A stretch of DNA of 64,000 nt from Bdellovibrionales bacterium (GCA_965204055.1 OZ241967.1:1318737-1382736); one strand, 5' to 3'. Shown: positions 22,902-55,499, counted from the first letter of the stretch. Made by a program: numbers and translations. The notes: generated by a model not told the origin, from the sequence alone.

Positions 22902-24572
22902 TCAACAGACTTTGAGTTTGAGTATTCTGTCTATGCGGAACATTCTTTCGTCCTGCATATTTAAGCAAAAAGCTCGCATGCCTTGATATTTTGTGCCCTT
23001 GTAAGTTTGCCAACCACATTCCAAAGGTTCCACCACAAAGAAGGATTTTAGGTCATTGGTTTTGAGATACTGGATCTTCAGTTGTTTTTTGCTTTCGATA
23101 GCCTTTTGAATAAGAATCATTTTATCTTGGACAGACATTTCCCTTTCTGCTTGGCGATATTGCCATTGGGTTAAAAATTTCATAATTCGATAATCAACAC
23201 GGATATGTTGTTTTTGGATAGGCACTTTCAACACAAGACCTTTAAAAGAAACACATCGGCTGAGGGCCACATAGGCTTGACCGCTGGCAAACATACCCCG
23301 GCTCATATCTATAATCACTCGCTCAAAAGTTTTGCCTTGACTTTTATGAATAGTGATGGCCCAGGCCAAACGAAAAGGGAATTGAGTAAAAGTGCCCACT
23401 AAATCTGAAGTAATAGCTTTCTTTTTTTCGGAGAAGGAAAATTGATAAATTTCCCATGTATGAGGAGACACAGAAACGATTTTATTTTCTGGATAAAGCT
23501 GAACTCGCACAAAATATTCTTTTCTGTTCTCTATATTTGCGCGATCCTCTATGTCCAAGTGGTTTTCTATGTCCACGCTATTCTCTATGTCCAAGTGGTT
23601 TTCTATGTCCACGCTATTCTCTGTGTCCACGCTATTCTCTGTGTCCACGCGAACCTCTATACCTACAATACGACCCACACTGCCATTCACCCATCGCTTT
23701 TTTGAATCATTGTTGAGGAGCATAACTTGCGCGCCTTTTTTAAATTTTAAAAGCTCATGGGTAGGAAAATACTCCTTTCCCACTTGGCCAGATATAATTG
23801 CTGAAGACTGAAAAACTTTGCCTTTTAGTTTTTTTAAACGTTCTTCGTTAATTTTATCAGCGGTTTTGTTGATAGCATTTAAACTTATATAAAACTGATT
23901 TTTTTCTGGCTTAAAAGAAGGAAGAAAACGGCGGTTTAAACAATCAATGTCATACTGCTGAACAGAGTTGTTTCTCACTCGATTTAACAGTTCTATAAAT
24001 TTTTGATCTTTTTGCCTGTAAACTTTTTCTAACTCTATGATTTCCATTTTAAACTTGTGCAGAGCTTTTGCACTAAAAAAAAAGGGAGATTCATACTGAG
24101 AGGAAAATACTTCTTTTTCCTTTGCTGTTACCACAGGAGGTAGCTGATAGAGATCACCGATAAAAATCATCTGCACTCCTCCAAAGGGCTTTGTTTTTTG
24201 AGGTCCATATCGACGTAAAAAAATATCTACACAATCTAAAAGATCGGCCCGTACCATAGATATTTCATCAATAATCAAGGTTTTTAAATTTTTATAAATA
24301 GCAGGATCTTTAGGCTTTTTTTTGCTTTTTTTTATTTTCTCTACATGAACATCTATATAAAATTTAAAAAAATTGTGTATGGTTTGGCCCTTTATATTTA
24401 ATGCGGCTACTCCTGTAGGAGCCAGTATCACAGGCTTTTTATCTGTAATAGAGCAAAAATATTCCAACAAAGTGGATTTACCTGTCCCGGCCTTTCCGGT
24501 GATAAAGAGGTTTTTTGTGGCTCTCATACCTTGAAGAGCCTGATTAAACTGAGGATTAATGTCTAACTTCAT
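22902..24572 (-). CDS. PIF1/RecD-family helicase with a WYL-like C-terminal domain and an internal 6-aa repeat insert
   Basis: Walker A GKAGTGKST, LIIDEISMV, FIGDLYQLPPV, ITIHKSQGKTF and ALSRC. C-terminal ~90 aa ending MFRIDRILKLKV resemble a WYL domain. The start is taken at MKLDINPQ (ATG 24572) because the upstream part of the ORF is made of 60-bp direct repeats. Confidence 0.85.
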   Translation of the reverse strand: MKLDINPQFNQALQGMRATKNLFITGKAGTGKSTLLEYFCSITDKKPVILAPTGVAALNIKGQTIHNFFKFYIDVHVEKIKKSKKKPKDPAIYKNLKTLIIDEISMVRADLLDCVDIFLRRYGPQKTKPFGGVQMIFIGDLYQLPPVVTAKEKEVFSSQYESPFFFSAKALHKFKMEIIELEKVYRQKDQKFIELLNRVRNNSVQQYDIDCLNRRFLPSFKPEKNQFYISLNAINKTADKINEERLKKLKGKVFQSSAIISGQVGKEYFPTHELLKFKKGAQVMLLNNDSKKRWVNGSVGRIVGIEVRVDTENSVDTENSVDIENHLDIENSVDIENHLDIEDRANIENRKEYFVRVQLYPENKIVSVSPHTWEIYQFSFSEKKKAITSDLVGTFTQFPFRLAWAITIHKSQGKTFERVIIDMSRGMFASGQAYVALSRCVSFKGLVLKVPIQKQHIRVDYRIMKFLTQWQYRQAEREMSVQDKMILIQKAIESKKQLKIQYLKTNDLKSFFVVEPLECGWQTYKGTKYQGMRAFCLNMQDERMFRIDRILKLKVC

Positions 24573-24624
24573 TTTCCAACTTTTATAGACTCCCACGGCT
24601 AAAATCGTGGTGCTCTGTCTTTGA

Positions 24625-24773
24625 CCGCATAGTGATATGCCAGTCAAATGACCAGAGCAATAACCTTTAGACTTTGCGGAAACTCCGCATAGTGATATGC
24701 CAGTCAAATGACCAAAAGTGACCCCCCCGACGATTCAAGCCACTGGACCCGTAATATGACAGTCAAATGACCA
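24625..24773. repeat. three direct repeats of about 30 bp at 60-bp spacing upstream of the helicase gene
   Basis: ccgcatagtgatatgccagtcaaatgacca occurs at 24625-24654 and 24685-24714 (identical). A degenerate third copy lies at 24748-24773. Confidence 0.8.
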
Positions 24774-26648: not shown

Positions 26649-27704
26649 ATGAGCACAAAAAAACCACAAAACCAATTTTTAAACTTAACTCAAGATCTGA
26701 TGTTTAAAATCTACTTTTCAAAAGATAAACAAGTCCTACTCTCTTTGTTAAAAACTTTCCTTCCCCTTCCACACGGAAAAATTATAAAGGATATATCTTT
26801 TTTGGAAATAAAAGAACAAAAAACACACTCAAAAACAGAATCCTACAGAAAACAGGGTGAAAATGCTCCATTAATGCAGAAAAAAGAGCAACGGTTAACC
26901 ATCATAGATAGCTCTCTTTATCCTAATATCGCCACAAACAAGCAAATCGTCATGGACTTAAGAGTTCAGCTTAGTACAGGAGAAAAAATAAATGTAGAGA
27001 TGCAATCTATGTCAAAAAAAGGCTTCTTAAACCGAGTCTTGTTTTATTGGGCCAGACTTTATACGGACAATCTAAGAAAAGCAGAAGACTATCATCACCT
27101 TTGCCCAGCTTATTCTTTAATCTTTACAGATTTTTCTGTATTCGCTCCTAAAGAAGATCGGTATAAAACCACAGACACCTCCAGCATTATTACTTCTTTT
27201 TCTTTACGATCGGATAAAAAGCCTCATTTTGTGCTCAATGATCAGTTAAAGATCGTTTTTGTGGAATTGAGCAAATTTAACACCAGTTCAGATAATATAA
27301 ATTTACCTAATTTATTTGATTTTCAAAAGCTATGGTGTTATATTTTAAAGAGGTCTAAAAATATAAGCCCAAGGGAATGTGAAATTTTATCAAAAAAGGG
27401 GGATGATATGAAAAGAGCAGTGGAACACTTACAGGACTTATCGCAAGATGAAGAGGTAAGAAGGTGGGAAGAAGCAAGAGAAAAATTTATACGAGACCAA
27501 AGAGCCGAAAAAGCCTACGCCTTTGACGAAGGATTAGAAAAAGGCATACAACAAGGTATAGAAAAAGGAAGAGCAGAAGGAAGAGCAGAAGGAGTGGAAA
27601 CAATAGCTTTAAATATGCTGAAAAACAATTTTAAGCCTTCTGTTATTTCCAATGTAACAGGCTTATCTAAAGAGGAAATTAAAAAACTTAAAAACGGTTC
27701 TTAA
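26649..27704 (+). CDS. Rpn/YhgA-family (PD-(D/E)xK) recombination-promoting nuclease / putative transposase
   Basis: 351 aa. N-terminal DLMFKIYF..., MDLRVQL..GEKINVEMQ core. C-terminal EKG/AEGR repeats and the LNMLKNNF...GLSKEEIKKLK tail, typical of this family. Confidence 0.8.
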   Translation: MSTKKPQNQFLNLTQDLMFKIYFSKDKQVLLSLLKTFLPLPHGKIIKDISFLEIKEQKTHSKTESYRKQGENAPLMQKKEQRLTIIDSSLYPNIATNKQIVMDLRVQLSTGEKINVEMQSMSKKGFLNRVLFYWARLYTDNLRKAEDYHHLCPAYSLIFTDFSVFAPKEDRYKTTDTSSIITSFSLRSDKKPHFVLNDQLKIVFVELSKFNTSSDNINLPNLFDFQKLWCYILKRSKNISPRECEILSKKGDDMKRAVEHLQDLSQDEEVRRWEEAREKFIRDQRAEKAYAFDEGLEKGIQQGIEKGRAEGRAEGVETIALNMLKNNFKPSVISNVTGLSKEEIKKLKNGS

Positions 27705-27872: not shown

Positions 27873-30800
27873 TTAAAATAAGTCTAATTCTTTTCTTTCT
27901 TGTTCTTTTTGTTTTATTTGGTTTATTCTGTCCTGCAAATAAGATACTTGATTTTTGCAAAAATCCCTTATATTTTTATGTTTGTGATTTCGTAAATTCA
28001 TTATAGCGGTTTTTATATTTTCATAATAATACAAATAACTACCTTTCACTACACCAGGATTTCCTAAATTTGTGGAAATAGCCGATGTGATTTCTTCTTG
28101 ATCTCCATAATTATCAAACAAGAAATAAGCTAAGGAAGACCAAACATATAATTTTTTTTCTGTATCATGGTTTAAAAGGTCTATATTTTCAGCCAAAAAA
28201 GCAGGTATTGTGTCTGGTGCTTTTTTACACCATTTTTTAAGTGTTTCTTCATTGCACACAAGAGAAAGCAGGCTTTTTTTATATAGATTCAAATCGCTAC
28301 TTTTAAAGAGTTGCCTTATATTAAATTTATTCATATTTTTGTCATAGTTTTTCGCTATTTCTGATAACACTATATCAGGATATTTTTCAGTTATTTTTTT
28401 TAAACATTCTTTTATACATTCTTCAGAAAGTGGCAGATCAAAAAGAGAACTTTTGTAATAAAAAATTTTACTCACAAAAAATTTAGAAAAATTTTGAGCA
28501 AGAATAGAAAAAGGCTTTTTATCAGATAGGGAAAAAAGTTTAAAAACCAATGATTTGTAAGAATGATCACTATTTGTATAGTTACGGCGTATTTTATTTG
28601 AAGAAGGGATTTCTTTGAATAAGTTTTTTTGTGTTAATAGCTGGCAACATACAGCCGGCAAAAGCTTTTCTTCTTTTTTTGCAGAAGAATATACATAATA
28701 GCTATATATGTTTAAAGCGGACTTAACCCATTCTACACTGTTGTTTTTATTGGTCAAGAAAATTATAAGATTTTTCATTTTCTCCGGGCTTACATTTTGG
28801 CATTTTTGGCCAGTGGAAAGGTGCTTTAGCTCCCAAAACAATTCAGGAATGTCGGCAATTTGGCTTAACTGGGTTAAAAATTTTATAAGCCGTGTAATAT
28901 CTTTATCGCATAAATCCATACTGTGATAAGCCGGAAGTAAAAAGCGTTTATATTCTGCATGGTGAGCTATTTTGTCCAAAATTTTTTGTGTTTTTTCTGG
29001 TGCTTGAACATTTAATCCAGATATAAAACCGCATAAGAAGGAAGGATTAAAATCTTTATTCTTTTTCCATTGATTAATGTGGTTCAATAAATTATTCATC
29101 CATTGTATGATTTGATGATTATCAGATTTAATATTTCTTGTGTCTATATTGTGTTTTAATTTTTTTTTGTTATGGCTTGTTAGTGTTTTTGTTTTGGAAA
29201 AAGAATTTTTATTGATAAATAATTTTTTAGCAGTCTCTTTGGCAAAAATAATGGTGTTGGTTTGTTGTCCATGAAATAGTATCTTAAGAGTAGCTATTAT
29301 ATTTTCCGGTTTTGCTTTTTGGATGTAGCCTATAAAATCATCAATCAGCTTTGTAAAGGCTGGGCTGCACCCCTTATTATGTTTTTTAAGGTTATATATT
29401 TGATAGTCATCACTTTCTGTCACATATAAGCGAATTTTTTTATTTATATCCTGTTTTACATGTTGCAGTAATTCTAATATTTCTTTGGTTTTTTTTATTG
29501 TTTCTTTGGTTTCTTTGTTTGATCGATATTGTAAAAATTGCTCTATATTTTTTATAGCTAAAAGCCAAAAACCATCCGGTAAAAAATCCATAACCTGTGT
29601 AACTGTTTTTTTTACATCTTCATGCAAGGCTTTTATCTTTAAAAGAGGGGGCAAATAGTTTGCTATAGTATCTTCTGCCTTCTTTCTTATGTTGTTATCT
29701 AAGTCAGAATCTGTTGCAAATTCAGTTAAGTGTTTTAAAGCTCTTCTGTGGTAATTCCATAGTTCGCCATAAGTAGCCGGTCGCCATTCTGTGCGAGGCT
29801 CTATGATAGAGCTGTCATAATTTCCCATATAACCACCAAGTTGTGGCAAAGCTTTTTCTAAAGCTTGAACAGCTATTTCTTTTTGTTTGTCTGTTCCTTC
29901 TTGTGTTATTTCTTTAATAAGCTGAAATTTTGTTTCAGGATTGGCCTGAGTTCCAGATAACATAAGCTGAAAATAACTTATAAAAATACCTGTGGAATTA
30001 TTGCCATAATCTTCATTTTCTGCTGTCGCCAGCTTTAACAGTAACCTGGCTGAATCCAAGTAAAATGCTTTTTTAAAAGCCAATTTTTGTAAAATCCCTA
30101 TCCACTCTCTTCGGACGGAAGGCATACCGAAAAACGCTTTCATATTCAAAAGTTCTTCTATAGTTTTTTTTTCAATCACTTTCTCAAGAGAGCTTAAAAC
30201 TTCTTTGGGAGCCAACTTTGTTAGATTATTTACGCAAGAAGCCCCCCAGCCTGTGCTTAAAACTTTTTCCTGTCCAAACAAACCATCTGGCTGGCATAAT
30301 TGCTGAACTACTTTTTGCATTTCAGGATATGTATCCTGTAGTGGCTGTTTTCCTTCTAATTCAATAACTGGTTCTCTTGAAAACTCAGTCAAATAATAAA
30401 TTTGTTTGCAAAAGGATTTTCTTAATGCCTGGTGAGGGGCGTACTCACTTTCCCATTGTTCCAGTTCTTTTTTTTTCTGCTCTGAGAGATTTGCATATCT
30501 TTTTTTATCAGCCTCTTGCTTTTTTTTATACTCTTTTTTTTCCTCTTCTGATAACTGTTGATATTTTTGTTTATCAGAGTCTGCTTTTTTTTGAGACAGG
30601 TCTTTGGATATCTGATCCATACCCGAAAGCCATTTTATTATGGATTCAGGTGGTGTTTCTTGAATAAGCTCCATAGCCAACCAAAGGGCTAAAGGTTTGG
30701 GGCGCACTTGGAGAAAAAGGCCATATTGCTGGATAATTTTTCTTTTTTCAAAAAATTTTATTTTTTTGTAAAATTCATCATAATCCATTTTGGCTATATG

Positions 30801-33008
30801 TTTAGCCACATACTTAAGCTCTTCTTTGGTCCTGCTGACAGATGTACTAAATGTTATAAATTTCTGGGCTGGATCCTCTTCCATACATATTGTGTCAAAA
30901 AGGGATAAGGCTTTTATTACTTTTTCGGCTTTTAGATCTGGAGCTTCCAAACCCCAAAGCATTTTTTTTCTAATAGTGGGTAAGTCATCTTTAATAAGAT
31001 CAAGAGAACCAGCCTTTTTTAATAATTGAGCCATGAGGGGAAATCCCTCTGTCATTTTAATATAAAATGGTTCAATATATATATTACTGATGTCTTGTCG
31101 ATCAGACAGTATTTTAGCAACAATTTTTGTATCCAGCCCTAATTCTACTAAAAGCCTTTTATTTTTTTGCAAATAAGTTTGATTAAAATTAGATAAGTTT
31201 TGAAATCCCTGAGGTTGTAGAGATTTTTTTGAGTGTAAACCCAGATCAAAAATACGAGAGTTGTTTATACTTCTTAGAGCATGAGGGTCAGGAACTGTAG
31301 GAGGTATATGTGTAAATATACCTCCTAATTTTTCAAATCCAATAGTCAAAAGGCTTAACTGTGAATCCTTTTGCAGGGCCAGTTTATGAAATTGCTCTGC
31401 CTTTTCAAGAGGACAATCATCTACAATCAAAATAGCCCTGGAATTTTTTAATTCTCTAATATGTGTCTCGGTTATAAGGTGTGCGGGGCTATAAAGCACT
31501 AAAGCTGATATATCGTTTTTATGTATCTTCTGCTCAAAAGCCCTATCATGGTCTTCTATTGGAGGGCGAAAGCTCTCCAAAGCCAAGCGGGTTTTTCCTA
31601 CACCGGAAGGCCCTTTTAAATGGGCTGTTTGTTGAGGATGAGATAGATAATTGAATAAAGCTAATTTTTTCTTTTCCAACTCCGCATGATACATAAACTC
31701 CGATCTTGGCTCTATATCTTGGCTCCATTCCTGCCATGAAATCCAAGGAGTTAACGGCTTTCTACACACTTCTTTTAAAAACCAAACAGCTAAAGAGGGA
31801 AAGCTGTTAAGCCAGTTTGCTATTTCATTGGCAGAATAAAATTTTATTTCAACAGAGCTTAAGTCATACCCCGCCTTCTCTATAAATTCTTGCATGGCTT
31901 CTGCTCTCATTTGCAGATGAACACCCTCCACCGGATAAGTAGAAAATAAAATATAAGCCCCTTTATTCTTAATTACTTTTTGAACAGCCGGATTCAAGTT
32001 GCCACTCTCACTTGTTTGTTTTTTTAATTTTTGAACAGTCTGGTTTTTTGCTTGGCTTTTTTTGTTTTCACTGGATATTTCTGTTACACATTCAGCCGGG
32101 GAAACTTTTTTAGCTTTGACTTGAAAAACATTATATTTTTTCGGGAAAAAGTTTGTTCGTTTCAGCTCCTCTTGATTCCATTTTATTAAGGCGTCTTGGC
32201 CTCCATCTTTGGCTGATATTTTAGAAGAAATATTAAGATTATTTTGTGGTATATTAAAACACGCGCATTCCGACAATATTAGCCGTTTAAGCAGTTCTAC
32301 TGCTTGTTTGGGATTGCATTTTTGCACATCCTCTGGAGTGACATTAAATGGTCCAACAGCTGAGTATGAGGTTTGGATTTTTGATCTCAAAAAACTTTCA
32401 GCCCGTTTTTTTTTAAATTCATTAAGGGCCAGGTTTTTTTGGATTTTGTTCAAGGCCATTTTAGGATGCTGAAAATAAATAGCCAATTTTTTTAAAACAT
32501 CCTTGCCTGTGGTTTTATTGTTTTCTGTCCGGTAAATGGAGGCTTGGGACACATCAAAAAGAAAAGCAAACTCCCTTATGGAAAGACCCAGGTTCTTTCT
32601 GAAAGACCGTAGATCTTTAGCAGAAAACTTTTTTTGCTCCCGAACCGGCTCAAACACAAAAGGGGTAATAGGACTTTTTTTTCCGAAGGCACTTAGCAAA
32701 ATAAAAGGATCTTTTTCAAAAGGACTCAAGCCCACATCATGGCAGTATTCTTCATAAGCCGGATTTTGTTGAGAAGGGATCCGGTCTGCAAAAGAAGGAA
32801 AAAGTTTTAAAGAAGTATGCCGGGCTTTTTTCAAAGGCAAATCCGGCCCTATAGAAATAGGGTTTTCACTATACAGATAAGCCTTGTCATACTCAAAAAC
32901 AAATTTCCCTGTTTTTTGGCTTAACCGGCCCACATACTGTCGGGTTTTGCGTCTTTCTAAATAAAAATCCAATGCTTTGTATTTCATTTTTACCTTTTTT
33001 TTATACAT
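27873..33008 (-). CDS. 1711-aa fusion protein: HipA-N-subdomain-like (HipS-like) + XRE HTH + Mrr-like nuclease motif + STAND-type P-loop NTPase + long helical-repeat region
   Basis: - aa 8-120: VGRLSQKTGKFVFEYDKAYL...IGPDLPLKK...LFPSFADRIP (HipA N-terminal subdomain pattern).
- aa 125-190: LGLSIREFAFLFDVSQASIYRTENN (HTH_XRE).
- aa 266-300: KDGGQDALI...YNVFQVKAKK (D..D/QxK nuclease-like).
- aa 466-473: GPSGVGKT (Walker A).
- aa 525-531: AILIVDD (Walker B).
- The remaining ~1100 aa are Leu/Lys-rich and predicted helical by composition. Confidence 0.8.
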   Translation of the reverse strand: MYKKKVKMKYKALDFYLERRKTRQYVGRLSQKTGKFVFEYDKAYLYSENPISIGPDLPLKKARHTSLKLFPSFADRIPSQQNPAYEEYCHDVGLSPFEKDPFILLSAFGKKSPITPFVFEPVREQKKFSAKDLRSFRKNLGLSIREFAFLFDVSQASIYRTENNKTTGKDVLKKLAIYFQHPKMALNKIQKNLALNEFKKKRAESFLRSKIQTSYSAVGPFNVTPEDVQKCNPKQAVELLKRLILSECACFNIPQNNLNISSKISAKDGGQDALIKWNQEELKRTNFFPKKYNVFQVKAKKVSPAECVTEISSENKKSQAKNQTVQKLKKQTSESGNLNPAVQKVIKNKGAYILFSTYPVEGVHLQMRAEAMQEFIEKAGYDLSSVEIKFYSANEIANWLNSFPSLAVWFLKEVCRKPLTPWISWQEWSQDIEPRSEFMYHAELEKKKLALFNYLSHPQQTAHLKGPSGVGKTRLALESFRPPIEDHDRAFEQKIHKNDISALVLYSPAHLITETHIRELKNSRAILIVDDCPLEKAEQFHKLALQKDSQLSLLTIGFEKLGGIFTHIPPTVPDPHALRSINNSRIFDLGLHSKKSLQPQGFQNLSNFNQTYLQKNKRLLVELGLDTKIVAKILSDRQDISNIYIEPFYIKMTEGFPLMAQLLKKAGSLDLIKDDLPTIRKKMLWGLEAPDLKAEKVIKALSLFDTICMEEDPAQKFITFSTSVSRTKEELKYVAKHIAKMDYDEFYKKIKFFEKRKIIQQYGLFLQVRPKPLALWLAMELIQETPPESIIKWLSGMDQISKDLSQKKADSDKQKYQQLSEEEKKEYKKKQEADKKRYANLSEQKKKELEQWESEYAPHQALRKSFCKQIYYLTEFSREPVIELEGKQPLQDTYPEMQKVVQQLCQPDGLFGQEKVLSTGWGASCVNNLTKLAPKEVLSSLEKVIEKKTIEELLNMKAFFGMPSVRREWIGILQKLAFKKAFYLDSARLLLKLATAENEDYGNNSTGIFISYFQLMLSGTQANPETKFQLIKEITQEGTDKQKEIAVQALEKALPQLGGYMGNYDSSIIEPRTEWRPATYGELWNYHRRALKHLTEFATDSDLDNNIRKKAEDTIANYLPPLLKIKALHEDVKKTVTQVMDFLPDGFWLLAIKNIEQFLQYRSNKETKETIKKTKEILELLQHVKQDINKKIRLYVTESDDYQIYNLKKHNKGCSPAFTKLIDDFIGYIQKAKPENIIATLKILFHGQQTNTIIFAKETAKKLFINKNSFSKTKTLTSHNKKKLKHNIDTRNIKSDNHQIIQWMNNLLNHINQWKKNKDFNPSFLCGFISGLNVQAPEKTQKILDKIAHHAEYKRFLLPAYHSMDLCDKDITRLIKFLTQLSQIADIPELFWELKHLSTGQKCQNVSPEKMKNLIIFLTNKNNSVEWVKSALNIYSYYVYSSAKKEEKLLPAVCCQLLTQKNLFKEIPSSNKIRRNYTNSDHSYKSLVFKLFSLSDKKPFSILAQNFSKFFVSKIFYYKSSLFDLPLSEECIKECLKKITEKYPDIVLSEIAKNYDKNMNKFNIRQLFKSSDLNLYKKSLLSLVCNEETLKKWCKKAPDTIPAFLAENIDLLNHDTEKKLYVWSSLAYFLFDNYGDQEEITSAISTNLGNPGVVKGSYLYYYENIKTAIMNLRNHKHKNIRDFCKNQVSYLQDRINQIKQKEQERKELDLF

Positions 33009-34101
33009 TTTTTAAATCCTGCAAACGATTATTTAAAAAACGAATAAACGCTGTTTTTCTATTATCTGAAATTTCTGATTTTTTAGTTTCTTCTATTAAA
33101 AAGGGAAATTGTTTAATAATCTGCTCTATAAATTTCAAACAGGGATTTTCTAAATTCAATCTTTTAAATTCATACACATAGTCTTTTATTTTTGGTTCTT
33201 TAGAAGAGGTTGTCCAAATACAACCACTAATGTTAAACTGATGGCCAAGCATTTCTTCCGGTGTTATACCAAAATCGGATGGGTTATCATACATAGGAGC
33301 AAGCCTTTTCTTTTTGCCTGTGTCTATGATGCCTAAATTTCGGCCATGCCGATCTCTATTTCCAATAAAAGCATCAAAAAGACATATCTTAACAAATGTG
33401 TTAAGATCATTTGGTTGGTTTGTTTGTTGCTCTATAACATTGACAATGTTTTGGCAGTTATAATGTTTATCCCCTTTGGGTAAAAACTTGTAAATATGAT
33501 TCAGCACTCCCACGCAATCCTGCATAAAATTTTTAGTAACAAAAGCCATAAGGTTTTTTGGTTTTTCTTTTTGATTTGTTAATCTTTTACTTTCAGGTGG
33601 ATTTAACAAGCTTTGTTGGTAAGCTGTTAGAGGTAATTTTATATCTTGACGATGGGGTGCAGAAGTGCCAACAGAAGTAAGGTGTTCGGCTACATTTTCC
33701 TGTTCTGAAACAGAGCTACTTTGGTTTATGTGTGAAATATCATTGAATTGAATTAAATAATACGAAGGGACTTTCAAACCAAGATGAGAAGCTATTTGAT
33801 TGCAAAGGTATTCCATAGCTGGCAGATCAGGAAACTTTGATTCCTCTACTTTTAAGATGTATTGCCGGTCCCCTAATTTGGCTGAATATTTGTGATATCG
33901 ACCATGATAAAAACTGTCTTTATTTTTTGTAAATTTGACAGTAGGAGAAGAAGAGTAAGACCTTGCTTTTTTGAAATCCAGGTTATAAAATTCAGACGAA
34001 TCTTGCACGGCAAACCACTGTTGAAAGCAGTCTGTATGTAGACCGTAAATACTTTGATTTTTAATGGCTTCACGGCATTTAAAACATTTGATTTTTTTCA
34101 T
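33001..34101 (-). CDS. HipA-family Ser/Thr kinase (kinase core only) with an N-terminal Cys/His cluster
   Basis: FDAFIGNRDRHGRNLGII (GNxDxHxxN catalytic loop) and LAPMYDNPS (Mg-binding Asp) are HipA_C hallmarks. N-terminus CFKCREAIKNQSIYGLHTDC. The stop overlaps the start of the 1711-aa gene (ATGTATAA). Confidence 0.85.
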   Translation of the reverse strand: MKKIKCFKCREAIKNQSIYGLHTDCFQQWFAVQDSSEFYNLDFKKARSYSSSPTVKFTKNKDSFYHGRYHKYSAKLGDRQYILKVEESKFPDLPAMEYLCNQIASHLGLKVPSYYLIQFNDISHINQSSSVSEQENVAEHLTSVGTSAPHRQDIKLPLTAYQQSLLNPPESKRLTNQKEKPKNLMAFVTKNFMQDCVGVLNHIYKFLPKGDKHYNCQNIVNVIEQQTNQPNDLNTFVKICLFDAFIGNRDRHGRNLGIIDTGKKKRLAPMYDNPSDFGITPEEMLGHQFNISGCIWTTSSKEPKIKDYVYEFKRLNLENPCLKFIEQIIKQFPFLIEETKKSEISDNRKTAFIRFLNNRLQDLKNV

Positions 34102-34207
34102 AATATAGTCAATATACTATAAAATTATTTTGTAGTCAAATAACTATAAATTTTTAAAATAGGGCTGAAAAATAAGAAAAAACGCCTTTATTCAAGCTTT
34201 TTTTCAG

Positions 34208-34538: not shown

Positions 34539-35777
34539 TTGACTTGTAAAAATATATATGAACATCATAAAAAATACATGTTTATAACAAAGCTCACTTC
34601 CAAAAGTTCCTTTCTAAAATCCAAACACAGCCCCCCGGAGCAGTTAAGCTTTAGCGGTTCAGGTTGTTTGCCTTTTATTGTAACAGAAGGTATTAAATAC
34701 AGTGGATCTAAATTGAAACTTTTGCCTCATATTCTATCTATTGTAAAATCTTTACCTGTGAAACAGGTGTTTGATGGATTTTCTGGTACAACAAGAGTGA
34801 GCCAAGCTTTAGCTAAAAGTGGGTATCAGGTTATATCTAATGATATAGCTATATGGTCAAAAATTTTTGCAGAGTGTTATTTAAAAGGAAATGTAACAGC
34901 TGAATTACAGGACAAAATAAATTATCTAAACAGTTTAAAAGGCCTGGAGGGTTGGTTTACAAACCACTATGGCGGGGAGTCTAATAGGGGTTTGGCTGTG
35001 CATTCTGATGGAAAGAAAAAGATATGGCAAATTCATAATACCAAAAAATTAGACAGCATAAGGTTAGCAATAGATAAAATTGCAGAAACCAAAATCGAAA
35101 AATCCATTTTACTCACCAGTCTTATTTTAGCTTTAGATAAAGTGGATAATACTCTTGGACATTATGTTTCTTATTTAAGGAATTGGTCTCCTCGTTCTTT
35201 TAAAACAATGCAACTTAAAATGCCTTTAATAGAAAGTAGCAAAGGTCTTCATCGGGTTATGAATGAAAATATTTTTAAAGCACAAGTTAAAGTTAAGCCA
35301 GATCTTTCTTATTTTGATCCGCCTTATGGTTCCAATAATGAAAAAATGCCTCCTTCCCGTGTTCGTTATGCGGGTTATTATCATATTTGGAAAACTATTA
35401 TTTTAAATGATGAACCGGAGCTTTCAGGAAAAACAAATCGCCGGGCAGACTGCAAGGATTTAGAAACAAGTTCTGTATTTGAGGAATTTCGTAAAGATAA
35501 AAAAGGTAGGTTTATAGCTTTAAAAGCCATTGAGAAGTTAATTAAAGAATGTCGATCTCCATATATTTTGCTCTCTTACAGTAATGGGGGGCGAGCCACA
35601 AAAGAGGAGATTAGCGAAGTGATTCAGGATTGTTGTTCTAAAGTGCAGGTATTTACTATTGATTACAGAAAAAATGTTATGTCTAATATGCGTTGGACTT
35701 ATGATTGGATTAAAGAGAAAAAGGCTCCACATACAGAGTTTTTATTTTTAATGCAGAAAAGGGTTTTGGAGAAATGA
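34539..35777 (+). CDS. D12-class (Dam-like) N6-adenine DNA methyltransferase
   Basis: YSGSKLKLLPHI, FDGFSGTTRVSQAL (motif I) followed by FDPPYGS (motif IV). The real start may be the ATG at 34578. Confidence 0.85.
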   Translation: MTCKNIYEHHKKYMFITKLTSKSSFLKSKHSPPEQLSFSGSGCLPFIVTEGIKYSGSKLKLLPHILSIVKSLPVKQVFDGFSGTTRVSQALAKSGYQVISNDIAIWSKIFAECYLKGNVTAELQDKINYLNSLKGLEGWFTNHYGGESNRGLAVHSDGKKKIWQIHNTKKLDSIRLAIDKIAETKIEKSILLTSLILALDKVDNTLGHYVSYLRNWSPRSFKTMQLKMPLIESSKGLHRVMNENIFKAQVKVKPDLSYFDPPYGSNNEKMPPSRVRYAGYYHIWKTIILNDEPELSGKTNRRADCKDLETSSVFEEFRKDKKGRFIALKAIEKLIKECRSPYILLSYSNGGRATKEEISEVIQDCCSKVQVFTIDYRKNVMSNMRWTYDWIKEKKAPHTEFLFLMQKRVLEK

Positions 35778-35796
35778 AAAATCAAAAAACTTATTC

Positions 35797-35840
35797 TTAA
35801 GGTTATGTTTGCACACACGAAAAGCCTCTTCTATCTTCCA
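35797..35840 (-). mobile_element. 44-bp internal fragment of the IS1634-type transposase gene
   Basis: cttaaggttatgtttgcacacacgaaaagcctcttctatcttcca matches 9745-9788 with 1 mismatch. Confidence 0.6.
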
Positions 35841-35885
35841 ATAAAGTAGAAGGGCAGGTTTTACTTTTAACTGGAGGATATAAAA

Positions 35886-36227
35886 ATGATCAAAAAAAAG
35901 ACATCAAAAAAGCTAAACGGATACTTCGAAAGTATGCCAAATTTAAAGATGAAGAATAAAAAAAATAGGACAACCCAGTTTCATGCTGTTAAAAGAATGA
36001 AAGATAAAAAATATATTTCTAAAGCTTTATGGGAGTGTATTATATCTAATGACACAGTAGGGTTCAAAGAAATTATACGATCTCATTTGAATTTGGTCCA
36101 AAAAGAAGAATTTGCAAAAAAAACTGGTCTTTCCAAAAAAGACTTATCTTATATCGTATCCAAAAAAGGCAACCCTACTTTAGATAATATATCCAAAGTT
36201 ATTTATCATCTCCATACCAGCCTTTAA
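35886..36227 (+). CDS. HigA-type addiction-module antidote (HTH) protein, apparently without its toxin partner
   Basis: KKYISKALWECIISNDTVGFKEIIRSHLNL..FAKKTGLSKKDLSYIVSKKGNPTLDNISKVI fits the antidote family usually found downstream of a RelE/ParE-like killer. The upstream position is occupied by an IS fragment. Confidence 0.65.
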   Translation: MIKKKTSKKLNGYFESMPNLKMKNKKNRTTQFHAVKRMKDKKYISKALWECIISNDTVGFKEIIRSHLNLVQKEEFAKKTGLSKKDLSYIVSKKGNPTLDNISKVIYHLHTSL

Positions 36228-38250: not shown

Positions 38251-39099
38251 ATGAACCAAAAAAACTGTAGTAAAAAACAAATTCCTTTTCTTAGTTCTGG
38301 TTTTTTTGTTGGAGATTGTGTCGACCTTATGAAAAACCGGATGAAAACAAATTCTGTTGATTTAACTATTACTTCCCCACCTTACGACAATTTAAGAACC
38401 TATAATGGCTATTCATTTGAATTTAAAGAAATAGCAAAACAGCTTTATCGAGTGACAAAATCAGGTGGTGTCCTGGTTTGGATAATCGGTGACAAGATAA
38501 AAAAAGGACGAAGCCTGACCAGTTTTGAACAAGGTTTGTTTTTTCAAAAAGTGGGTTTTTTAATGCATGATGTAATGATATATAAAAAGAAAAACACACC
38601 TTTTATGAGAAGCAACGCTTACACTAATTGTTTTGAATTTATGTTTGTCTTAAGTAAGGGCAAGCTAAAAACTTTTAACCCACTAAAGGAAAAAACAGTA
38701 CGAAATGGCTATGAAATGCTGACTTATAATAAAAAAGCAGATGGAATCAATAGGAAAAATTGGAAAGAACTCAAAAAAGAAAAAACAAAAACCAATATAT
38801 GGGAATACGCTGTTGGCCTGGGAGGCACTACTTCAGACAGAATAGCTTTTCAGCACCCGGCTGTTTTTCCAGAAAAATTAGCGGAAGATCATATTTTATC
38901 TTGGTCCCATCCGAGGGATATGGTGTTTGATCCAATGTGTGGTTCGGGAACAACCTGTAAGATGGCTATGATACATAATAGAAAATTTATTGGCATTGAT
39001 GTCTCTGAAGACTATATTAATATTGCTAAAAAACGGATACAACTTATAAAATACACTCAACAAATGACCTTAAACCCAGAGGGTATGACCTCTCTTTAA
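38251..39099 (+). CDS. beta-class N4-cytosine/N6-adenine DNA methyltransferase
   Basis: Motif IV TSPPY near the N-terminus and motif I FDPMCGSGTT near the C-terminus (N6_N4_Mtase order). Confidence 0.85.
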   Translation: MNQKNCSKKQIPFLSSGFFVGDCVDLMKNRMKTNSVDLTITSPPYDNLRTYNGYSFEFKEIAKQLYRVTKSGGVLVWIIGDKIKKGRSLTSFEQGLFFQKVGFLMHDVMIYKKKNTPFMRSNAYTNCFEFMFVLSKGKLKTFNPLKEKTVRNGYEMLTYNKKADGINRKNWKELKKEKTKTNIWEYAVGLGGTTSDRIAFQHPAVFPEKLAEDHILSWSHPRDMVFDPMCGSGTTCKMAMIHNRKFIGIDVSEDYINIAKKRIQLIKYTQQMTLNPEGMTSL

Positions 39100-39120
39100 T
39101 TTGCAAGGCATATATATTTA

Positions 39121-39690
39121 TTACTGAATATTTTTTTTAATCAACTGAATGTCGTCTTTAAATCTTCCCAAACCTGTATTACAGCTATCACATATCCACG
39201 CTCTGGCTTTCCCGGTTCTATGATCATGATCTCTAACCAAATGGGCTGTAACTCCCACAATAGTTCTTTTTTCACATATCGGGCAGATAAATATATCTTT
39301 TTTCTTTGGTTTTAATCTACCTAATTTCTGTTTTTCTGTGTTTAACAGTTTAATTCCTTCAATTTTTTTTCTGCATTCTTTACAGCTGGGTCTTGTTGTT
39401 TTTCTGCCTTTAGCATCGGTTTGGTTAATATCAAAATCTTTTTTATTATCTTTTAAAATATGACATATATTACATATTTTTTTCCTATATGGTTTTCCTG
39501 TTTTTTCAATATCCAAGAATTGAACACTGGCTTTTCCAATTTTGATAATTTTTCCACTGCCAATAAAAAACACAGTGATCTGAGAATCTGAAATCTGTTT
39601 TATAATTCCAACAGCTCCCTTACTAATAGGACCCTGCTTTTTTGTAGCAAGAACAAAATCACAAATATTAAGACTCTTCTGAACAGCCAT
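39121..39690 (-). CDS. HNH (endonuclease VII-type) nuclease, candidate restriction endonuclease
   Basis: CPICEKR...HLVRDHDHRTGKARAWICDSCNTGLGRF plus CNICH / CKECRKK zinc clusters. Start taken at the ATG at 39690, which has RBS aggagg. The longer ORF to 39885 overlaps the neighbouring gene. Confidence 0.75.
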   Translation of the reverse strand: MAVQKSLNICDFVLATKKQGPISKGAVGIIKQISDSQITVFFIGSGKIIKIGKASVQFLDIEKTGKPYRKKICNICHILKDNKKDFDINQTDAKGRKTTRPSCKECRKKIEGIKLLNTEKQKLGRLKPKKKDIFICPICEKRTIVGVTAHLVRDHDHRTGKARAWICDSCNTGLGRFKDDIQLIKKNIQ

Positions 39691-39793
39691 ATAATAAAAC
39701 CTCCTATACAGTAACCTAAAAATAGGGTGGTCAAGAGCATTTTTATTTATTGAATACCTGGTATTTTCAGCTTTGTAAAAACTTCCTACTAAT

Positions 39794-40378
39794 TCAATCA
39801 ATGGAGGTTTTGGAGTTTTGATAAAGCCACTTTTTAGCGGTTCTACCTGATATAAGACACCAACGCCTATCAAAATACGCACCAATAATCCCCCCTGCTA
39901 CAGGCACCATTTTTCCTAAGTTTAAAATCCCTTTAGAACCAAACTTTGTAAATAACCTAAAACCTACCTGCTTGTTTATTTTTATTAAAATTTTTCCACT
40001 TATACTGGCAATCATTTGCTGAGTTAGCTTTTGACCTATTTTAATACCTACTGATTTTAAAATTTCCTTAATAGCATCACCTGTCAGGCAACAGTATATG
40101 ACAGTTTTAACTTCTTCTGATTTTATGTCATACCCGCTTATGTAAGCAATTTTAGCTATCATACGCAGTTGAATGTATAAAACAGCTGTTAATCCGGCTG
40201 GCACAGCCACAGGCAAAGTGATTGCTCCTCCTACTGAAGATATAAAACCAGTGGCTGTGCTTTTGGCCACAGCCCACTTTATTACCGAATCAATATGGGC
40301 ACAATGACATGTTCTATCTTGATCTGACTCTCCTAAACCCTTTTTATGATATTTTTCTCTTTCTGATCTGGCCCTCAT
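39794..40378 (-). CDS. EcsC-family protein, 5' end abutting or truncated by an IS3-family element
   Basis: GGAITLPVAVPAGLTAVLYIQLRMIAKIAYISGYD fits the EcsC pattern. The first codons lie inside the IS left inverted repeat. Confidence 0.55.
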   Translation of the reverse strand: MRARSEREKYHKKGLGESDQDRTCHCAHIDSVIKWAVAKSTATGFISSVGGAITLPVAVPAGLTAVLYIQLRMIAKIAYISGYDIKSEEVKTVIYCCLTGDAIKEILKSVGIKIGQKLTQQMIASISGKILIKINKQVGFRLFTKFGSKGILNLGKMVPVAGGIIGAYFDRRWCLISGRTAKKWLYQNSKTSID

Positions 40379-40442: not shown

Positions 40443-40727
40443 ATGAAAAATACAAAGAGGCGACGCTATTCAGAGTCGTTTAAAAAAGAGGCTGTGAGAA
40501 GGGTTCTGGAAGGTTCTCGCTCCTCTAATCGAGTTTCTCAGGAGTTGGGGATAGGCCAGCCCACTTTAAGTAAGTGGGTGAGACAGTTTAAGCAAGGTGG
40601 TCATTCTTCTTTTAATAAGGAGTCTGAGCGGGCTTTAAAACAGCTAAAAGCGGAGAACAAACGGCTTAAGGAAGAAAGAGACATTTTAAAAAAAGCCACC
40701 ATCTTCTTTGCCAGTCACGAAGGTTGA
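40443..40727 (+). CDS. IS3-family transposase OrfA (HTH)
   Basis: RRYSESFKKEAVRRV...GIGQPTLSKWVRQFK and a leucine-zipper-like tail. Confidence 0.9.
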   Translation: MKNTKRRRYSESFKKEAVRRVLEGSRSSNRVSQELGIGQPTLSKWVRQFKQGGHSSFNKESERALKQLKAENKRLKEERDILKKATIFFASHEG

Positions 40728-51993: not shown

Positions 51994-52083
51994 AATAACC
52001 CGCTTTTTTTATTTCTTCAGCTATCCTTATGGTTGATCATAATTCAATATATTTCCAGAAAAGCAAAATAGTCAATAAAAAAA

Positions 52084-52199: not shown

Positions 52200-52210
52200 A
52201 ATTCTTTTTT

Positions 52211-52483: not shown

Positions 52484-55499
<3,016 letters not shown>

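What the first reader, a model, noticed from the sequence alone, without database searches (positions are those of the whole stretch)
27873..34101. HipA-type kinase translationally coupled to a giant HipS-like/HTH/nuclease/STAND-NTPase fusion protein
What the sequence shows:
- Two minus-strand genes overlap by 8 nt (ATGTATAA at 33001-33008).
- The first (366 aa) keeps the HipA kinase core (GNRDRHGRN catalytic loop, LAPMYDNPS).
- It lacks the HipA N-terminal subdomain and starts with a Cys/His cluster instead.
- The usual Gly-rich/phospho-serine loop position reads SFYHGRYHKYSAKL.
- The second gene (1711 aa) begins with a segment resembling that missing HipA N-subdomain, then carries an XRE HTH.
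- Further in, it has a DGGxD...QVK nuclease-like motif, Walker A/B motifs (GPSGVGKT, ILIVDD) and about 1100 aa of helical repeats.

Established background: in the tripartite HipBST system, the N-subdomain-like HipS neutralises the kinase HipT, and HipB is the HTH protein.

Inference: here HipS-like and HipB-like modules are fused to an Avs/NLR-like nuclease-STAND sensor. The locus would then be a kinase toxin gated by a pattern-recognition ATPase, or a STAND defence protein with a kinase effector. I do not know of a described system with this architecture.
Basis: partly seen in the sequence, partly recalled or inferred. Interest (0 to 1): 0.9.

Follow-up and report, generated by a model that had tools for sequence, protein, structure and literature searches.

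The report
Capsid-sensor immune protein fused to kinase antidote
A bacterial antiviral sensor of a known type (Avs8, which detects phage capsid protein and cuts DNA) has acquired at its front end the antidote and DNA-binding parts of a HipA-type kinase toxin system; the kinase gene sits immediately upstream, an arrangement not described before that suggests a virus sensor controlling a second, kinase-based kill switch.

Summary
Two minus-strand genes overlap by 8 nt (ATGTATAA).

**Kinase (366 aa).** It is a HipT-like HipA-family kinase that lacks N-subdomain 1. It carries a conserved N-terminal CCHC cluster and intact catalytic residues.

**Giant protein (1711 aa).**
- Residues 1-218 are a HipS-like domain plus an XRE HTH.
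- Residues ~219-1711 are collinear with full-length PD-lambda-4A, now called Avs8A (hhalign probability 100 %, E 6e-168). Avs8A is a published Mrr-nuclease/STAND sensor of HK97 capsid proteins.
- The nuclease and Walker A/B residues are invariant in the giant family.

**Conservation.**
- About 49 homologues exist. Every genome locus retrieved comes from a Bdellovibrionales or Oligoflexia MAG.
- The kinase lies directly upstream in 11 of 12 readable loci; the twelfth keeps only a remnant.
- A double-palindrome operator/promoter abuts the kinase ATG in all 16 loci examined.

**The module elsewhere.** The same kinase plus HipS-HTH cassette also occurs standalone, or fused to PDC-S39/DUF4209, SIR2-like, ankyrin or unknown domains.

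**Best reading (inferred).** This is an autoregulated kinase toxin docked on a capsid-sensing Avs8, giving nuclease plus kinase outputs.

**Verdict.** It is a new variant that combines two known kinds. No phenotype was tested.

The parts
34105..34147 (-). Promoter with two palindromic operator-like repeats. O1 is 34132-34147 and O2 is 34105-34120, each of the form (G/A)TAGTATATTGACTA(C/T), 27 nt apart. They embed a -35 TTGACT (34134-34139) and a -10 TATATT (34111-34116). Only ~9 nt separate the -10 from the ATG, so the mRNA would be leaderless-like.
   Evidence: Repeats found. This is the best sigma-70-like site in the region, 10 of 12 matches. The element is conserved abutting the kinase ATG in all 16 loci, while sequence further upstream is not.
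33001..34101 (-). HipT-like HipA-family Ser/Thr kinase gene, 366 aa, lacking HipA N-subdomain 1.
   Evidence: HipA_C E 3.7e-20. PDC-M03A E 1.6e-19. Nearest PDB sequences are HipT(Lp) at E 2e-7. AF2 model has pLDDT 80.7, and its top Foldseek hits are HipT(Lp), E. coli HipT, HipA and CtkA.
34027..34086 (-). N-terminal Cys/His cluster of the kinase (C6, C9, H22, C25), a putative zinc knuckle.
   Evidence: The four residues are at least 90 % conserved in 44 homologues. This segment is modelled with pLDDT 87-95. Zinc binding is inferred.
33850..33918 (-). Loop at the HipA Gly-rich (P-loop) position plus the putative ATP-binding lysine: D62-S-F-Y-H-G67-R-Y-H-K71...K84.
   Evidence: G67, Y69, K71, A74 and K84 are invariant. 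Residues 47-66 are modelled with low confidence. Equivalence to HipA GxQxK is by position and is inferred.
33277..33363 (-). Catalytic loop G-N-R-D250-R-H252-G-R-N255 and the Mg-binding motif LAPMY271-D272-NPS.
   Evidence: D250, R251, H252, G253, N255, Y271 and D272 are invariant in 44 homologues. The region aligns with the catalytic region of HipT(Lp).
33568..33750 (-). Disordered insertion specific to this window's kinase (residues ~118-178).
   Evidence: It is absent from most homologues and has pLDDT below 50.
33001..33008 (-). 8-nt overlap ATGTATAA between the kinase stop and the giant's start, indicating translational coupling.
   Evidence: Seen directly. The same 8-nt overlap occurs in L012, L014, L016 and L017.
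27873..33008 (-). Giant gene, 1711 aa: a HipS-like + HTH module fused to a complete Avs8A (PD-lambda-4A).
32676..32939 (-). HipS-like domain (equivalent to HipA N-subdomain 1), residues 24-111.
   Evidence: Couple_hipA E 6.9e-9. PDC-M03B E 5e-11. The module profile hits HipA residues 10-108 at E 3.8e-7, HipS HI_0666 at 2e-6 and E. coli HipS at 4.4e-5. The top Foldseek hit of the model is HipA.
32472..32612 (-). XRE-type HTH (HipB/MqsA/HigA-like), residues 133-179.
   Evidence: HTH_3 E 2e-6. The module profile hits MqsA, HigA and HipB(Lp).
31764..32354 (-). Mrr-type PD-(D/E)xK nuclease domain, residues ~219-415, with D268-G-G-Q-D272...Q296-V-K298.
   Evidence: Collinear with the Avs8A N-terminal domain, which has the same invariant DGGxD...QxK. 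The predicted topology is alpha-beta-beta-beta-alpha-beta. Avs8A is described as having a Mrr nuclease with DNase activity. No Pfam Mrr model hit this region or canonical Avs8A.
30639..31691 (-). STAND NTPase module, residues ~440-790, with Walker A G466-PSGVGKT473 and Walker B ILIVD529-D530.
   Evidence: Walker residues are invariant. The region is collinear with the Avs8A NTPase. There are weak Foldseek hits to ORC/Cdc6, Dark, CED-4, ZAR1 and the AVAST5 filament, and a weak NB-ARC hit in homologue P0012.
30444..30626 (-). Lys/Glu-rich insertion, residues ~795-855, absent from canonical Avs8A.
   Evidence: It appears as a gap in the hhalign alignment.
27876..30431 (-). C-terminal sensor region, residues ~860-1711, homologous to the Avs8A capsid-binding sensor.
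   Evidence: PD-Lambda-4_A E 5.8e-52. hhalign alignment runs to column 1272 of 1280. The ligand is inferred from Avs8 studies.

Best explanation
The locus is a two-gene, translationally coupled defence operon.

**Shown by homology.**
- Gene 1 encodes a HipT-like HipA-family Ser/Thr kinase. It has no N-subdomain 1, carries an extra N-terminal CCHC knuckle and keeps its catalytic residues.
- Gene 2 encodes a complete Avs8A (PD-lambda-4A): Mrr-type nuclease, STAND NTPase and capsid-type sensor. It is extended at its N-terminus by about 218 residues made of a HipS-like domain and an XRE HTH.

**Inferred mechanism.**
- The HipS-like domain docks the kinase and probably neutralises it, as HipS does for HipT.
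- The HTH dimer binds the two palindromes that cover the -35 and -10 boxes and autorepresses the operon, as HipB does.
- When the Avs8-type sensor binds a phage HK97-fold major capsid protein, ATP-dependent oligomerisation activates the Mrr nuclease, as shown for E. coli Avs8A. It also rearranges the N-terminal module so that the kinase is released or activated and phosphorylates a translation factor, such as an aminoacyl-tRNA synthetase.
- The result is two abortive-infection outputs from one sensor.

The cassette began as a standalone two-gene kinase/HipS-HTH toxin-antitoxin pair. It was fused once to Avs8A in a Bdellovibrionota lineage.
For: **Domain identities.**
- The body is collinear with full-length Avs8A at hhalign probability 100 %, E 6e-168, over 1231 columns.
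- The ~1270 aa relatives match the PD-Lambda-4_A profile end to end.

**All three enzymatic centres are under constraint.**
- Kinase: K84, D250, H252, N255 and D272 are invariant in 44 sequences.
- Nuclease: D268, Q296 and K298 are invariant.
- NTPase: Walker A GxGKT and Walker B D530 are invariant in 39 sequences spanning 41-81 % identity to the window protein.

**Linkage.**
- The kinase is directly upstream in the window, L001-L006, L008 and L016-L018, often with the same 8-nt overlap.
- 34 of the 49 giant-bearing contigs share a contig length with a top-120 kinase hit.

**Operator.** A conserved double palindrome overlaps the promoter in all 16 loci, whatever the partner type.

**Precedents.**
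- HipS neutralises HipT, and HipB autoregulates.
- Avs8A binds HK97 capsid proteins and becomes a DNase.
- HipA-family kinases act as toxins of validated defence systems, DS-6/HipAD and PDC-M66.
- Antitoxins with added sensor-type domains have been proposed for the HipN and HipR families.

**Context.** The locus lies beside methyltransferases, a restriction-modification pair and transposase-type genes.
Against: - No experiment or complex model links sensor activation to kinase release.
- The E. coli HipS inhibitory Trp65 has no equivalent here. That loop instead carries an invariant D75-R76-x-P78...N82-P-A84-Y85 motif, so docking might complete an active HipA-like kinase rather than inhibit it.
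- The Mrr nuclease is intact, and Avs8A alone suffices for defence in E. coli. The kinase is therefore not needed as an effector.
- One genome (L009) keeps the giant but only a remnant of the kinase.
- The same module is fused to effector-type domains such as a SIR2-like domain, which does not fit a simple sensor-gates-kinase logic.
- Capsid sensing is extrapolated across only ~19 % identity.
Confidence: 0.45

Rival explanations
1. Addiction or guard module. The kinase/HipS-HTH pair is an ordinary toxin-antitoxin cassette whose antitoxin has been welded to a defence gene. The kinase fires when the giant protein is lost, degraded, inhibited by a phage counter-defence, or no longer synthesised after host shut-off. 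It does not fire when the sensor binds capsid. The fusion stabilises a costly immune gene in a small genome, or backs it up.
For: - The module is ancestrally standalone, in ~47-52 of ~99-130 module clusters.
- It is fused to unrelated defence-type bodies: Avs8A, PDC-S39/DUF4209 and SIR2-like. That fits a generic stabiliser better than a sensor-specific coupling.
- Avs8A needs no partner for defence.
- Loss of the toxin while the fused antitoxin gene is retained (L009) is the direction of decay expected for a toxin-antitoxin pair.
- Translational coupling would fix the stoichiometry.
Against: - A 1711 aa antitoxin is an unusual labile partner.
- The fusion has persisted with all catalytic motifs over divergence to ~37 % identity, and nearly all loci keep the kinase. 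This suggests integrated function.
- No evidence bears on protein stability.
Confidence: 0.25
2. Kinase as regulator or recruited subunit, not as a released toxin. The HipS-like domain plays the role of HipA N-subdomain 1, so the docked kinase forms a complete HipA-like enzyme on the STAND scaffold. In one version it phosphorylates the giant or itself to set the activation threshold. In the other it becomes active through induced proximity in the oligomer, as the N-terminal effector domains of Avs proteins do.
For: - The module aligns better with HipA N-subdomain 1 (E 3.8e-7) than with E. coli HipS (4.4e-5) and lacks Trp65.
- It occupies the N-terminal position where Avs proteins carry their effectors.
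- Autophosphorylation near the Gly-rich loop regulates HipA and HipT, and a conserved D-S/T precedes G67 here.
- The kinase's conserved CCHC knuckle could be a separate sensing or docking element.
Against: - No evidence exists for any phosphorylation target.
- In every tested split system, HipS is inhibitory.
- The HTH and operator point to toxin-antitoxin-style autoregulation.
Confidence: 0.2
3. Not an immune system. The giant is a STAND-type transcription regulator, like MalT or other large ATP-binding regulators. It senses an endogenous ligand and controls a persistence-type HipA kinase operon. The nuclease-like domain is vestigial.
For: - An HTH sits on a STAND protein, and a conserved operator lies at its own promoter.
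- HipA kinases are classically linked to persistence.
Against: - The nuclease catalytic residues are invariant.
- The whole body is orthologous in architecture to an experimentally validated anti-phage protein.
- Canonical relatives are found on viral and prophage contigs.
- The neighbourhood is of defence-island type.
Confidence: 0.05

Closest known systems
Avs8 / PD-lambda-4 (Avs8A): E. coli STAND NTPase with an N-terminal Mrr nuclease that senses HK97-fold major capsid proteins
   Same: - Residues ~219-1711 are collinear with full-length Avs8A.
- The catalytic signatures are identical: KDGGxD...FQVK, G-x-SGVGKTR and ILxVDxC.
- The C-terminal sensor is homologous along its whole length.
   Different: - Identity is only about 19-25 %.
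- There is an extra 218 aa HipS-like + HTH module at the N-terminus.
- There is an extra K/E-rich insertion.
- The partner gene is an upstream HipA-family kinase, not the downstream Avs8B. No PD-Lambda-4_B match was found, and the window has no downstream gene.
- All retrieved genome loci are from Bdellovibrionales/Oligoflexia MAGs.
- Ligand and activity are untested.
HipBST tripartite toxin-antitoxin system (E. coli O127, Legionella pneumophila, Haemophilus influenzae)
   Same: - The kinase lacks HipA N-subdomain 1, and its closest structures are HipT proteins.
- A HipS-like polypeptide homologous to that subdomain is present.
- An XRE HTH and palindromic operators at the promoter are present.
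   Different: - The gene order is kinase first.
- The HipS-like and HTH parts are one polypeptide, further fused to Avs8A.
- There is no Trp65 equivalent.
- The kinase has an added CCHC knuckle and Arg in place of Lys in its D-x-H-x-(K/R)-N loop.
- The target is unknown.
hipJS and hipIN modules of Gerdes et al. 2021 (clade XI short kinases with a downstream HipS or HipS-like + HIRAN partner); PADLOC candidate PDC-M03
   Same: - The bicistron is kinase first, with a downstream partner that starts with a HipS-like domain.
- The best PADLOC hits are PDC-M03A and PDC-M03B.
- The partner carries an added C-terminal domain that was proposed to sense something.
   Different: - The added domains here are an HTH followed by Avs8A, PDC-S39, SIR2-like or ankyrin, not HIRAN.
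- Only the first ~105 positions of the PDC-M03B profile are matched.
- Placement of the kinase in the Hip tree was not tested.
HipA-kinase defence systems DS-6/HipAD and PDC-M66 (HipA-like kinase + DUF3037 protein)
   Same: A HipA-family kinase acts as the toxin or effector of an anti-phage system and is neutralised by an adjacent protein.
   Different: - The partner is unrelated (DUF3037/DUF1829).
- No STAND sensor is involved.
- The PDC-M66A hit here is only marginal, E 0.009.
CapRel(SJ46)-type fused toxin-antitoxin defence, where an antitoxin domain doubles as a capsid sensor
   Same: The concept is the same: an antitoxin element physically joined to a phage-capsid-sensing element, so that capsid protein would relieve toxin inhibition. 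CapRel is cited as a capsid-sensing system.
   Different: - The folds and the toxin are unrelated.
- Here the sensor is a whole STAND protein with its own nuclease.
- The coupling is hypothetical.

Membership tests
Avs8 / PD-lambda-4A | Full-length collinear homology with the PD-Lambda-4_A family | tested here: met
   PADLOC PD-Lambda-4_A E 5.8e-52. hhalign of the giant family against 25 canonical members gives probability 100 %, E 6e-168, with giant columns 221-1563 aligned to columns 3-1272 of 1280. The canonical members match the profile end to end.
Avs8 / PD-lambda-4A | N-terminal Mrr-type nuclease with catalytic D...(Q/E)xK | tested here: met
   D268, Q296 and K298 are invariant and identical to the Avs8A motif (D49/D53, Q76, K78). 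The predicted topology is alpha-beta-beta-beta-alpha-beta. The label 'Mrr' itself comes from the literature; Pfam does not detect it, even in canonical members.
Avs8 / PD-lambda-4A | STAND P-loop NTPase with Walker A and Walker B | tested here: met
   GxSGxGKT473 and D530 are invariant. Foldseek hits to ORC/Cdc6, Dark, CED-4, ZAR1 and AVAST5 are weak, E 3e-3 to 4e-2.
Avs8 / PD-lambda-4A | Sensor binds HK97-fold major capsid protein and triggers DNase activity and defence | not testable with these tools
   Only homology of the sensor region is shown. The function is known for E. coli Avs8A.
Avs8 / PD-lambda-4A | Two-gene operon with Avs8B downstream | tested here: not met
   The window has no downstream same-strand gene. 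The 289 aa gene downstream in L016 has no PD-Lambda-4_B hit. Avs8B is dispensable for defence, so this feature is weakly defining.
HipBST toxin-antitoxin system | HipT: a HipA-family kinase lacking N-subdomain 1 and keeping the catalytic motifs | tested here: met
HipBST toxin-antitoxin system | HipS: a polypeptide homologous to HipA N-subdomain 1, encoded next to the kinase | tested here: met
   Here it is a domain of the giant, not a separate ~100 aa protein.
HipBST toxin-antitoxin system | Three separate genes in the order hipB-hipS-hipT | tested here: not met
   There are two genes, with the kinase first and the HipS-like and HTH parts fused.
HipBST toxin-antitoxin system | Inhibitory Trp65-type residue in HipS (E. 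coli type) | tested here: not met
   The family has no Trp in the corresponding loop, which instead carries an invariant D75-R76-x-P78...N82-P-A84-Y85. Trp65 is not universal among HipS proteins.
HipBST toxin-antitoxin system | Kinase toxicity neutralised by HipS; HTH autoregulation | not testable with these tools
   Conserved palindromic operators over the promoter are consistent with autoregulation.
hipJS / hipIN (Gerdes clade XI) and PADLOC PDC-M03 | Kinase-first bicistron with a downstream partner that starts with a HipS-like domain | tested here: met
hipJS / hipIN (Gerdes clade XI) and PADLOC PDC-M03 | The partner is HipS only (hipJS) or HipS-like + HIRAN (hipIN) | tested here: not met
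   The partners are HipS-like + HTH, with or without large bodies. There is no HIRAN hit, and only positions ~20-105 of the PDC-M03B profile are matched.
hipJS / hipIN (Gerdes clade XI) and PADLOC PDC-M03 | [quoted passage not shown] | not tested

The most novel reading that the evidence does not exclude
The HipS-HTH module is a portable adaptor. It plugs one HipA-family kinase toxin into unrelated immune proteins: Avs8A, PDC-S39/DUF4209, SIR2-like, ankyrin and several unknown bodies. In the Avs8A fusion it creates a STAND/NLR-like pattern-recognition receptor whose output includes a trans-encoded Ser/Thr kinase. The kinase is released or activated from an antitoxin-like docking domain when capsid is recognised. 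The same polypeptide also represses its own promoter.
Probability: 0.3. Interest if true: 0.8.

Novelty: new variant of a known kind. Interest (0 to 1): 0.68.

Why it matters
- Avs/STAND receptors are the bacterial counterparts of NLRs. Their known outputs are effector domains fused in cis or adjacent enzymes.
- HipA-type kinases are known as persistence toxins and, recently, as toxins of simple two-gene defence systems.
- A natural, conserved fusion that tethers a kinase's antidote and repressor to a capsid sensor would be a direct link between toxin-antitoxin logic and pattern-recognition immunity.
- It is testable. It offers a way to ask how antitoxin-held toxins are released by a defined phage ligand.
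- The wider finding also matters. The same cassette is attached to several different defence-type bodies, which suggests a reusable regulatory or effector adaptor and flags several uncharacterised C-terminal domains as candidate immune modules.

Tried and rejected
- Looking up the exact giant protein on its source contig returned nothing, and cluster look-up gave no names or accessions. The organism is therefore inferred only from homologous loci, which are Bdellovibrionales/Oligoflexia MAGs.
- Pfam gave no hit for the nuclease, NTPase or sensor regions. It does not detect Mrr even in canonical Avs8A.
- A Pfam scan of the whole giant alignment exceeded the size limit.
- Sequence search of the whole giant against PDB found only an HTH.
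- Foldseek of the 640-residue multi-domain model gave only weak local hits: HipA N-terminus, then AAA+/STAND.
- An Avs8B equivalent was sought and not found.
- Within the window alone the operator pattern is not statistically enriched: 3 matches against 2.1 expected at 3 mismatches. Its support is the conservation across loci.
- Literature searches for HipA or HipS together with STAND or AVAST found nothing relevant. One was useless because 'HipS' matched unrelated words.
- The text supplements of the large Avs survey contain neither 'HipA' nor 'Avs8'. Its domain tables could not be checked.
- Viral contigs hold only canonical Avs8A-like genes, not the fusion.
- I considered that the pair might be two unrelated adjacent genes. 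I rejected this because of the conserved adjacency, the shared overlap and the fused antitoxin-type module.

Full report
**1. Observation**

The region holds two minus-strand ORFs at exactly the stated coordinates. One is 366 aa (33001..34101) and the other 1711 aa (27873..33008). The sequence at the junction reads AAT GTA TAA for the kinase end and ATG TAT AAA for the giant's start, an 8-nt overlap ATGTATAA.

**2. The kinase**

- Pfam gives HipA_C at E 3.7e-20, and PADLOC gives PDC-M03A at E 1.6e-19.
- The nearest solved sequences are Legionella HipT at E 2e-7.
- An AlphaFold2 model built on 44 homologues has pLDDT 80.7 and pTM 0.80.
- Its best structural matches are HipT(Lp), E. coli HipT from HipBST, then HipA and CtkA. 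It is therefore a HipA-family kinase without N-subdomain 1.

In the family alignment the invariant residues are:
- G67, K71 and K84, at the position of the HipA Gly-rich loop and the lysine that follows it.
- D250, R251, H252, G253 and N255, the catalytic loop. The usual Lys of that loop is Arg throughout the family.
- Y271 and D272, the Mg-binding motif.

A C6/C9/H22/C25 cluster is at least 90 % conserved and is modelled with confidence; I read it as a zinc knuckle, which is an inference. The window's copy has a private disordered insertion at residues ~118-178.

**3. The giant protein**

*N-terminal module.*
- Residues 24-111 match Couple_hipA at E 6.9e-9, and residues 133-179 match an XRE HTH at E 2e-6.
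- A profile of 37 short relatives of this module hits E. coli HipA residues 10-108 at E 3.8e-7, H. influenzae HipS at 2e-6 and E. coli O127 HipS at 4.4e-5.
- The HTH half of that profile hits MqsA, HigA and HipB(Lp).

*Body.*
- PADLOC unexpectedly matched residues 894-1197 to PD-Lambda-4_A at E 5.8e-52.
- Homology search found about 49 full-length relatives with the same N-terminus. It also found a wider set of ~1260-1290 aa proteins without it.
- Those shorter proteins match the PD-Lambda-4_A profile end to end, with E down to 0.
- A profile-profile comparison of the two sets gives probability 100 %, E 6e-168, over 1231 aligned columns. Giant columns 221-1563 align with columns 3-1272 of 1280.
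- The giant is therefore a complete PD-lambda-4A with a 218-residue module added in front.

*What PD-lambda-4A is.* It has been renamed Avs8. It is a STAND NTPase with an N-terminal Mrr nuclease. It binds HK97-fold major capsid proteins with nanomolar affinity and then degrades DNA. Avs8B, the second gene of that operon, is dispensable.

*Shared signatures*:
- KDGGxD...FQVK. In the giant, D268, Q296 and K298 are invariant.
- G-x-SGVGKTR, the Walker A motif.
- ILxVDxC, the Walker B motif.

*Structure model of residues 1-640* (pLDDT 75).
- It shows a HipA-N-like beta-rich domain, a helical HTH region, an alpha-beta-beta-beta-alpha-beta unit around the nuclease motif, and a P-loop core.
- Foldseek gave HipA as the top hit. 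Weak hits to ORC/Cdc6, Dark, CED-4, ZAR1 and an AVAST5 filament followed.
- Pfam sees no Mrr domain here or in canonical Avs8A. The Mrr label therefore rests on the literature, the motif and the predicted topology.

**4. Co-occurrence**

- A scan of species-representative genomes found 15 loci, all in Bdellovibrionales or Oligoflexia MAGs.
- A kinase homologue (41-70 % identity) ends within a few bases of the giant's start in L001-L006 and L008, and in three further loci, L016-L018. Several show the same 8-nt overlap.
- Counting the window, that is 11 of 12 loci with readable upstream sequence.
- The exception is L009, which keeps only a ~80-residue remnant of the kinase next to an intact giant gene.
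- Indirectly, 34 of the 49 giant-bearing contigs have the same length as a contig carrying one of the top 120 kinase hits.

**5. The cassette is older and wider than the fusion**

- Loci L011-L015 carry the same kinase subfamily followed by shorter partners.
  - Three are 208-210 aa proteins that are just HipS-like + HTH.
  - Two, of 494 and 806 aa, have the module fused to the PADLOC candidate PDC-S39/DUF4209.
- A search of 1.84 billion representative proteins with the 218-residue module found 131 clusters at E ≤ 1e-10.
- Of 99 clusters with the whole module:
  - About half are standalone.
  - 13 are fused to Avs8A.
  - 11 share another extension, with ankyrin repeats in P0299.
  - One carries a SIR2-like domain.
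  - Several carry bodies with no match.
- In a rough neighbour-joining tree of the module, the Avs8A-fused copies form one clade nested among standalone and otherwise-fused copies. The PDC-S39 fusion lies inside that clade.
- I read this as one old fusion to Avs8A followed by divergence to ~37 % identity, with occasional replacement of the body.
- Viral contigs hold only canonical Avs8A-like genes. Their matches to the giant start at residue 220 or 221 in five of six, which is the junction.

**6. Regulation**

- Directly upstream of the kinase ATG lie two copies of the palindrome (G/A)TAGTATATTGACTA(C/T), 27 nt apart.
- They contain the best sigma-70-like promoter of the region: TTGACT, 17 nt, TATATT.
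- The whole ~52-nt element is conserved against the start codon in all 16 loci, whatever the partner type. Sequence further upstream is not conserved.
- This is what a HipB-like autorepressor site would look like.
- Only about 9 nt separate the -10 box from the ATG, so the mRNA would be leaderless-like.

**7. Mechanism**

*Shown:* the domain identities, the fusion junction, conservation of all three catalytic centres, the adjacency and the operator.

*Inferred:*
- The HipS-like domain docks the kinase and probably neutralises it.
- The HTH represses the operon.
- The Avs8-type sensor recognises a capsid protein.
- The resulting oligomerisation both activates the nuclease and frees or activates the kinase.

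I put this at 0.45. The rivals are an addiction or guard role for the toxin-antitoxin part (0.25), a regulatory or induced-proximity role for a docked kinase (0.2), and a non-immune transcription regulator (0.05).

*Points against the leading model:*
- There is no equivalent of HipS Trp65.
- Avs8A alone is sufficient for defence.
- L009 has lost the kinase.
- The module is also fused to effector-type bodies such as the SIR2-like domain.

**8. Comparison and novelty**

- The body meets the tested criteria for Avs8A membership, except for the dispensable B gene.
- The kinase and module resemble HipBST in their parts. They fail its defining gene organisation and lack Trp65.
- The gene order matches the hipJS and hipIN modules of Gerdes et al. 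2021. The partner architecture (HTH, then large bodies) is not among that paper's ten organisations.
- HipA-family kinases are already validated as defence toxins in DS-6/HipAD and PDC-M66.
- I found no paper linking HipA or HipS modules to Avs or STAND proteins. The library is incomplete, and the domain tables of the large Avs survey could not be read.
- I rate this a new variant that combines two known kinds. Interest is 0.68: it is a clear, conserved and testable architecture, but both halves are known and no function was tested.

**9. Context**

The operon sits among these genes:
- a D12 methyltransferase;
- an HI1420-type HTH antidote gene;
- an N6/N4 methylase paired with a His-Me endonuclease;
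- an IS3-type transposase;
- a PDDEXK_2 gene;
- a PIF1-WYL helicase.

This is a defence-island-like setting.

Noticed in passing
window 52083-55498 (-): The 23S and 5S rRNA genes are present, but there is no 16S rRNA gene anywhere in the window, including the 8.5 kb upstream of the 23S. The rRNA genes appear to be unlinked, as in many reduced genomes.
   Followed up: no
window 38251-39885: A convergent pair of an N6/N4 DNA methylase (38251-39099, +) and a His-Me finger/EndoVII-type restriction endonuclease with an SH3 domain (39121-39885, -) is a likely type II restriction-modification system. An IS3-type rve transposase follows at 40724-41593.
   Followed up: partly
window 34539-36227 (+): A D12-class N6-adenine methyltransferase (PADLOC MTase_II, E 1.8e-137) is transcribed divergently from the kinase promoter. 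It is followed by an HI1420-type HTH 'antidote' gene (35886-36227) with no toxin gene in sight. That gene might be a controller protein or an orphan antitoxin.
   Followed up: no
window 26649-27704 (+); L011 5708-6826: A PDDEXK_2 (Rpn/transposase-like) gene lies just beyond the giant's stop codon. A similar gene with the same C-terminal ...GLS.EEIKKLKN.S tail lies 2 kb upstream of the kinase in L011. These multi-copy genes might mediate shuffling of the cassette.
   Followed up: no
window 22902-24707 (-): A PIF1-family helicase with a C-terminal WYL domain carries an internal run of ENSVD/IENHLD-type tandem peptide repeats.
   Followed up: no
window 34101-34116 (-) and 15 other loci: The conserved promoter leaves only ~9 nt between the -10 box and the kinase ATG, and there is no Shine-Dalgarno sequence. 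The operon mRNA would be leaderless or nearly so.
   Followed up: partly
L009 9581-9832: In one higher-GC Bdellovibrionales genome the kinase is reduced to a remnant covering residues ~5-75, while the 1631-1680 aa giant gene is intact. This is the toxin-loss direction expected for a toxin-antitoxin pair.
   Followed up: partly
L011 9998-12418; L012 10016-11500 (same genome as L001): The HipS-HTH module is fused to PDC-S39/DUF4209 instead of Avs8A. One genome (OZ241921.1) carries both an Avs8A fusion (L001) and a PDC-S39 fusion (L012), each with its own kinase.
   Followed up: yes
proteins P0297, P0299, P0260, P0276, P0290, P0301, P0339: Other HipS-HTH fusions carry a SIR2-like domain (P0297), ankyrin repeats (P0299) or C-terminal bodies of 165-435 aa with no Pfam or PADLOC match. 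These are candidate new defence-associated domains.
   Followed up: partly
window 30444-30626 (-), giant residues ~795-855: A Lys/Glu-rich insertion lies between the NTPase module and the sensor and is absent from canonical Avs8A.
   Followed up: no
L016 10539-11408 and 11515-15207: In L016 a 289 aa gene with no family match overlaps the giant's stop codon. It is followed by rve_3, HTH_17 and phage-integrase genes, which suggests a mobile-element setting in that genome.
   Followed up: partly
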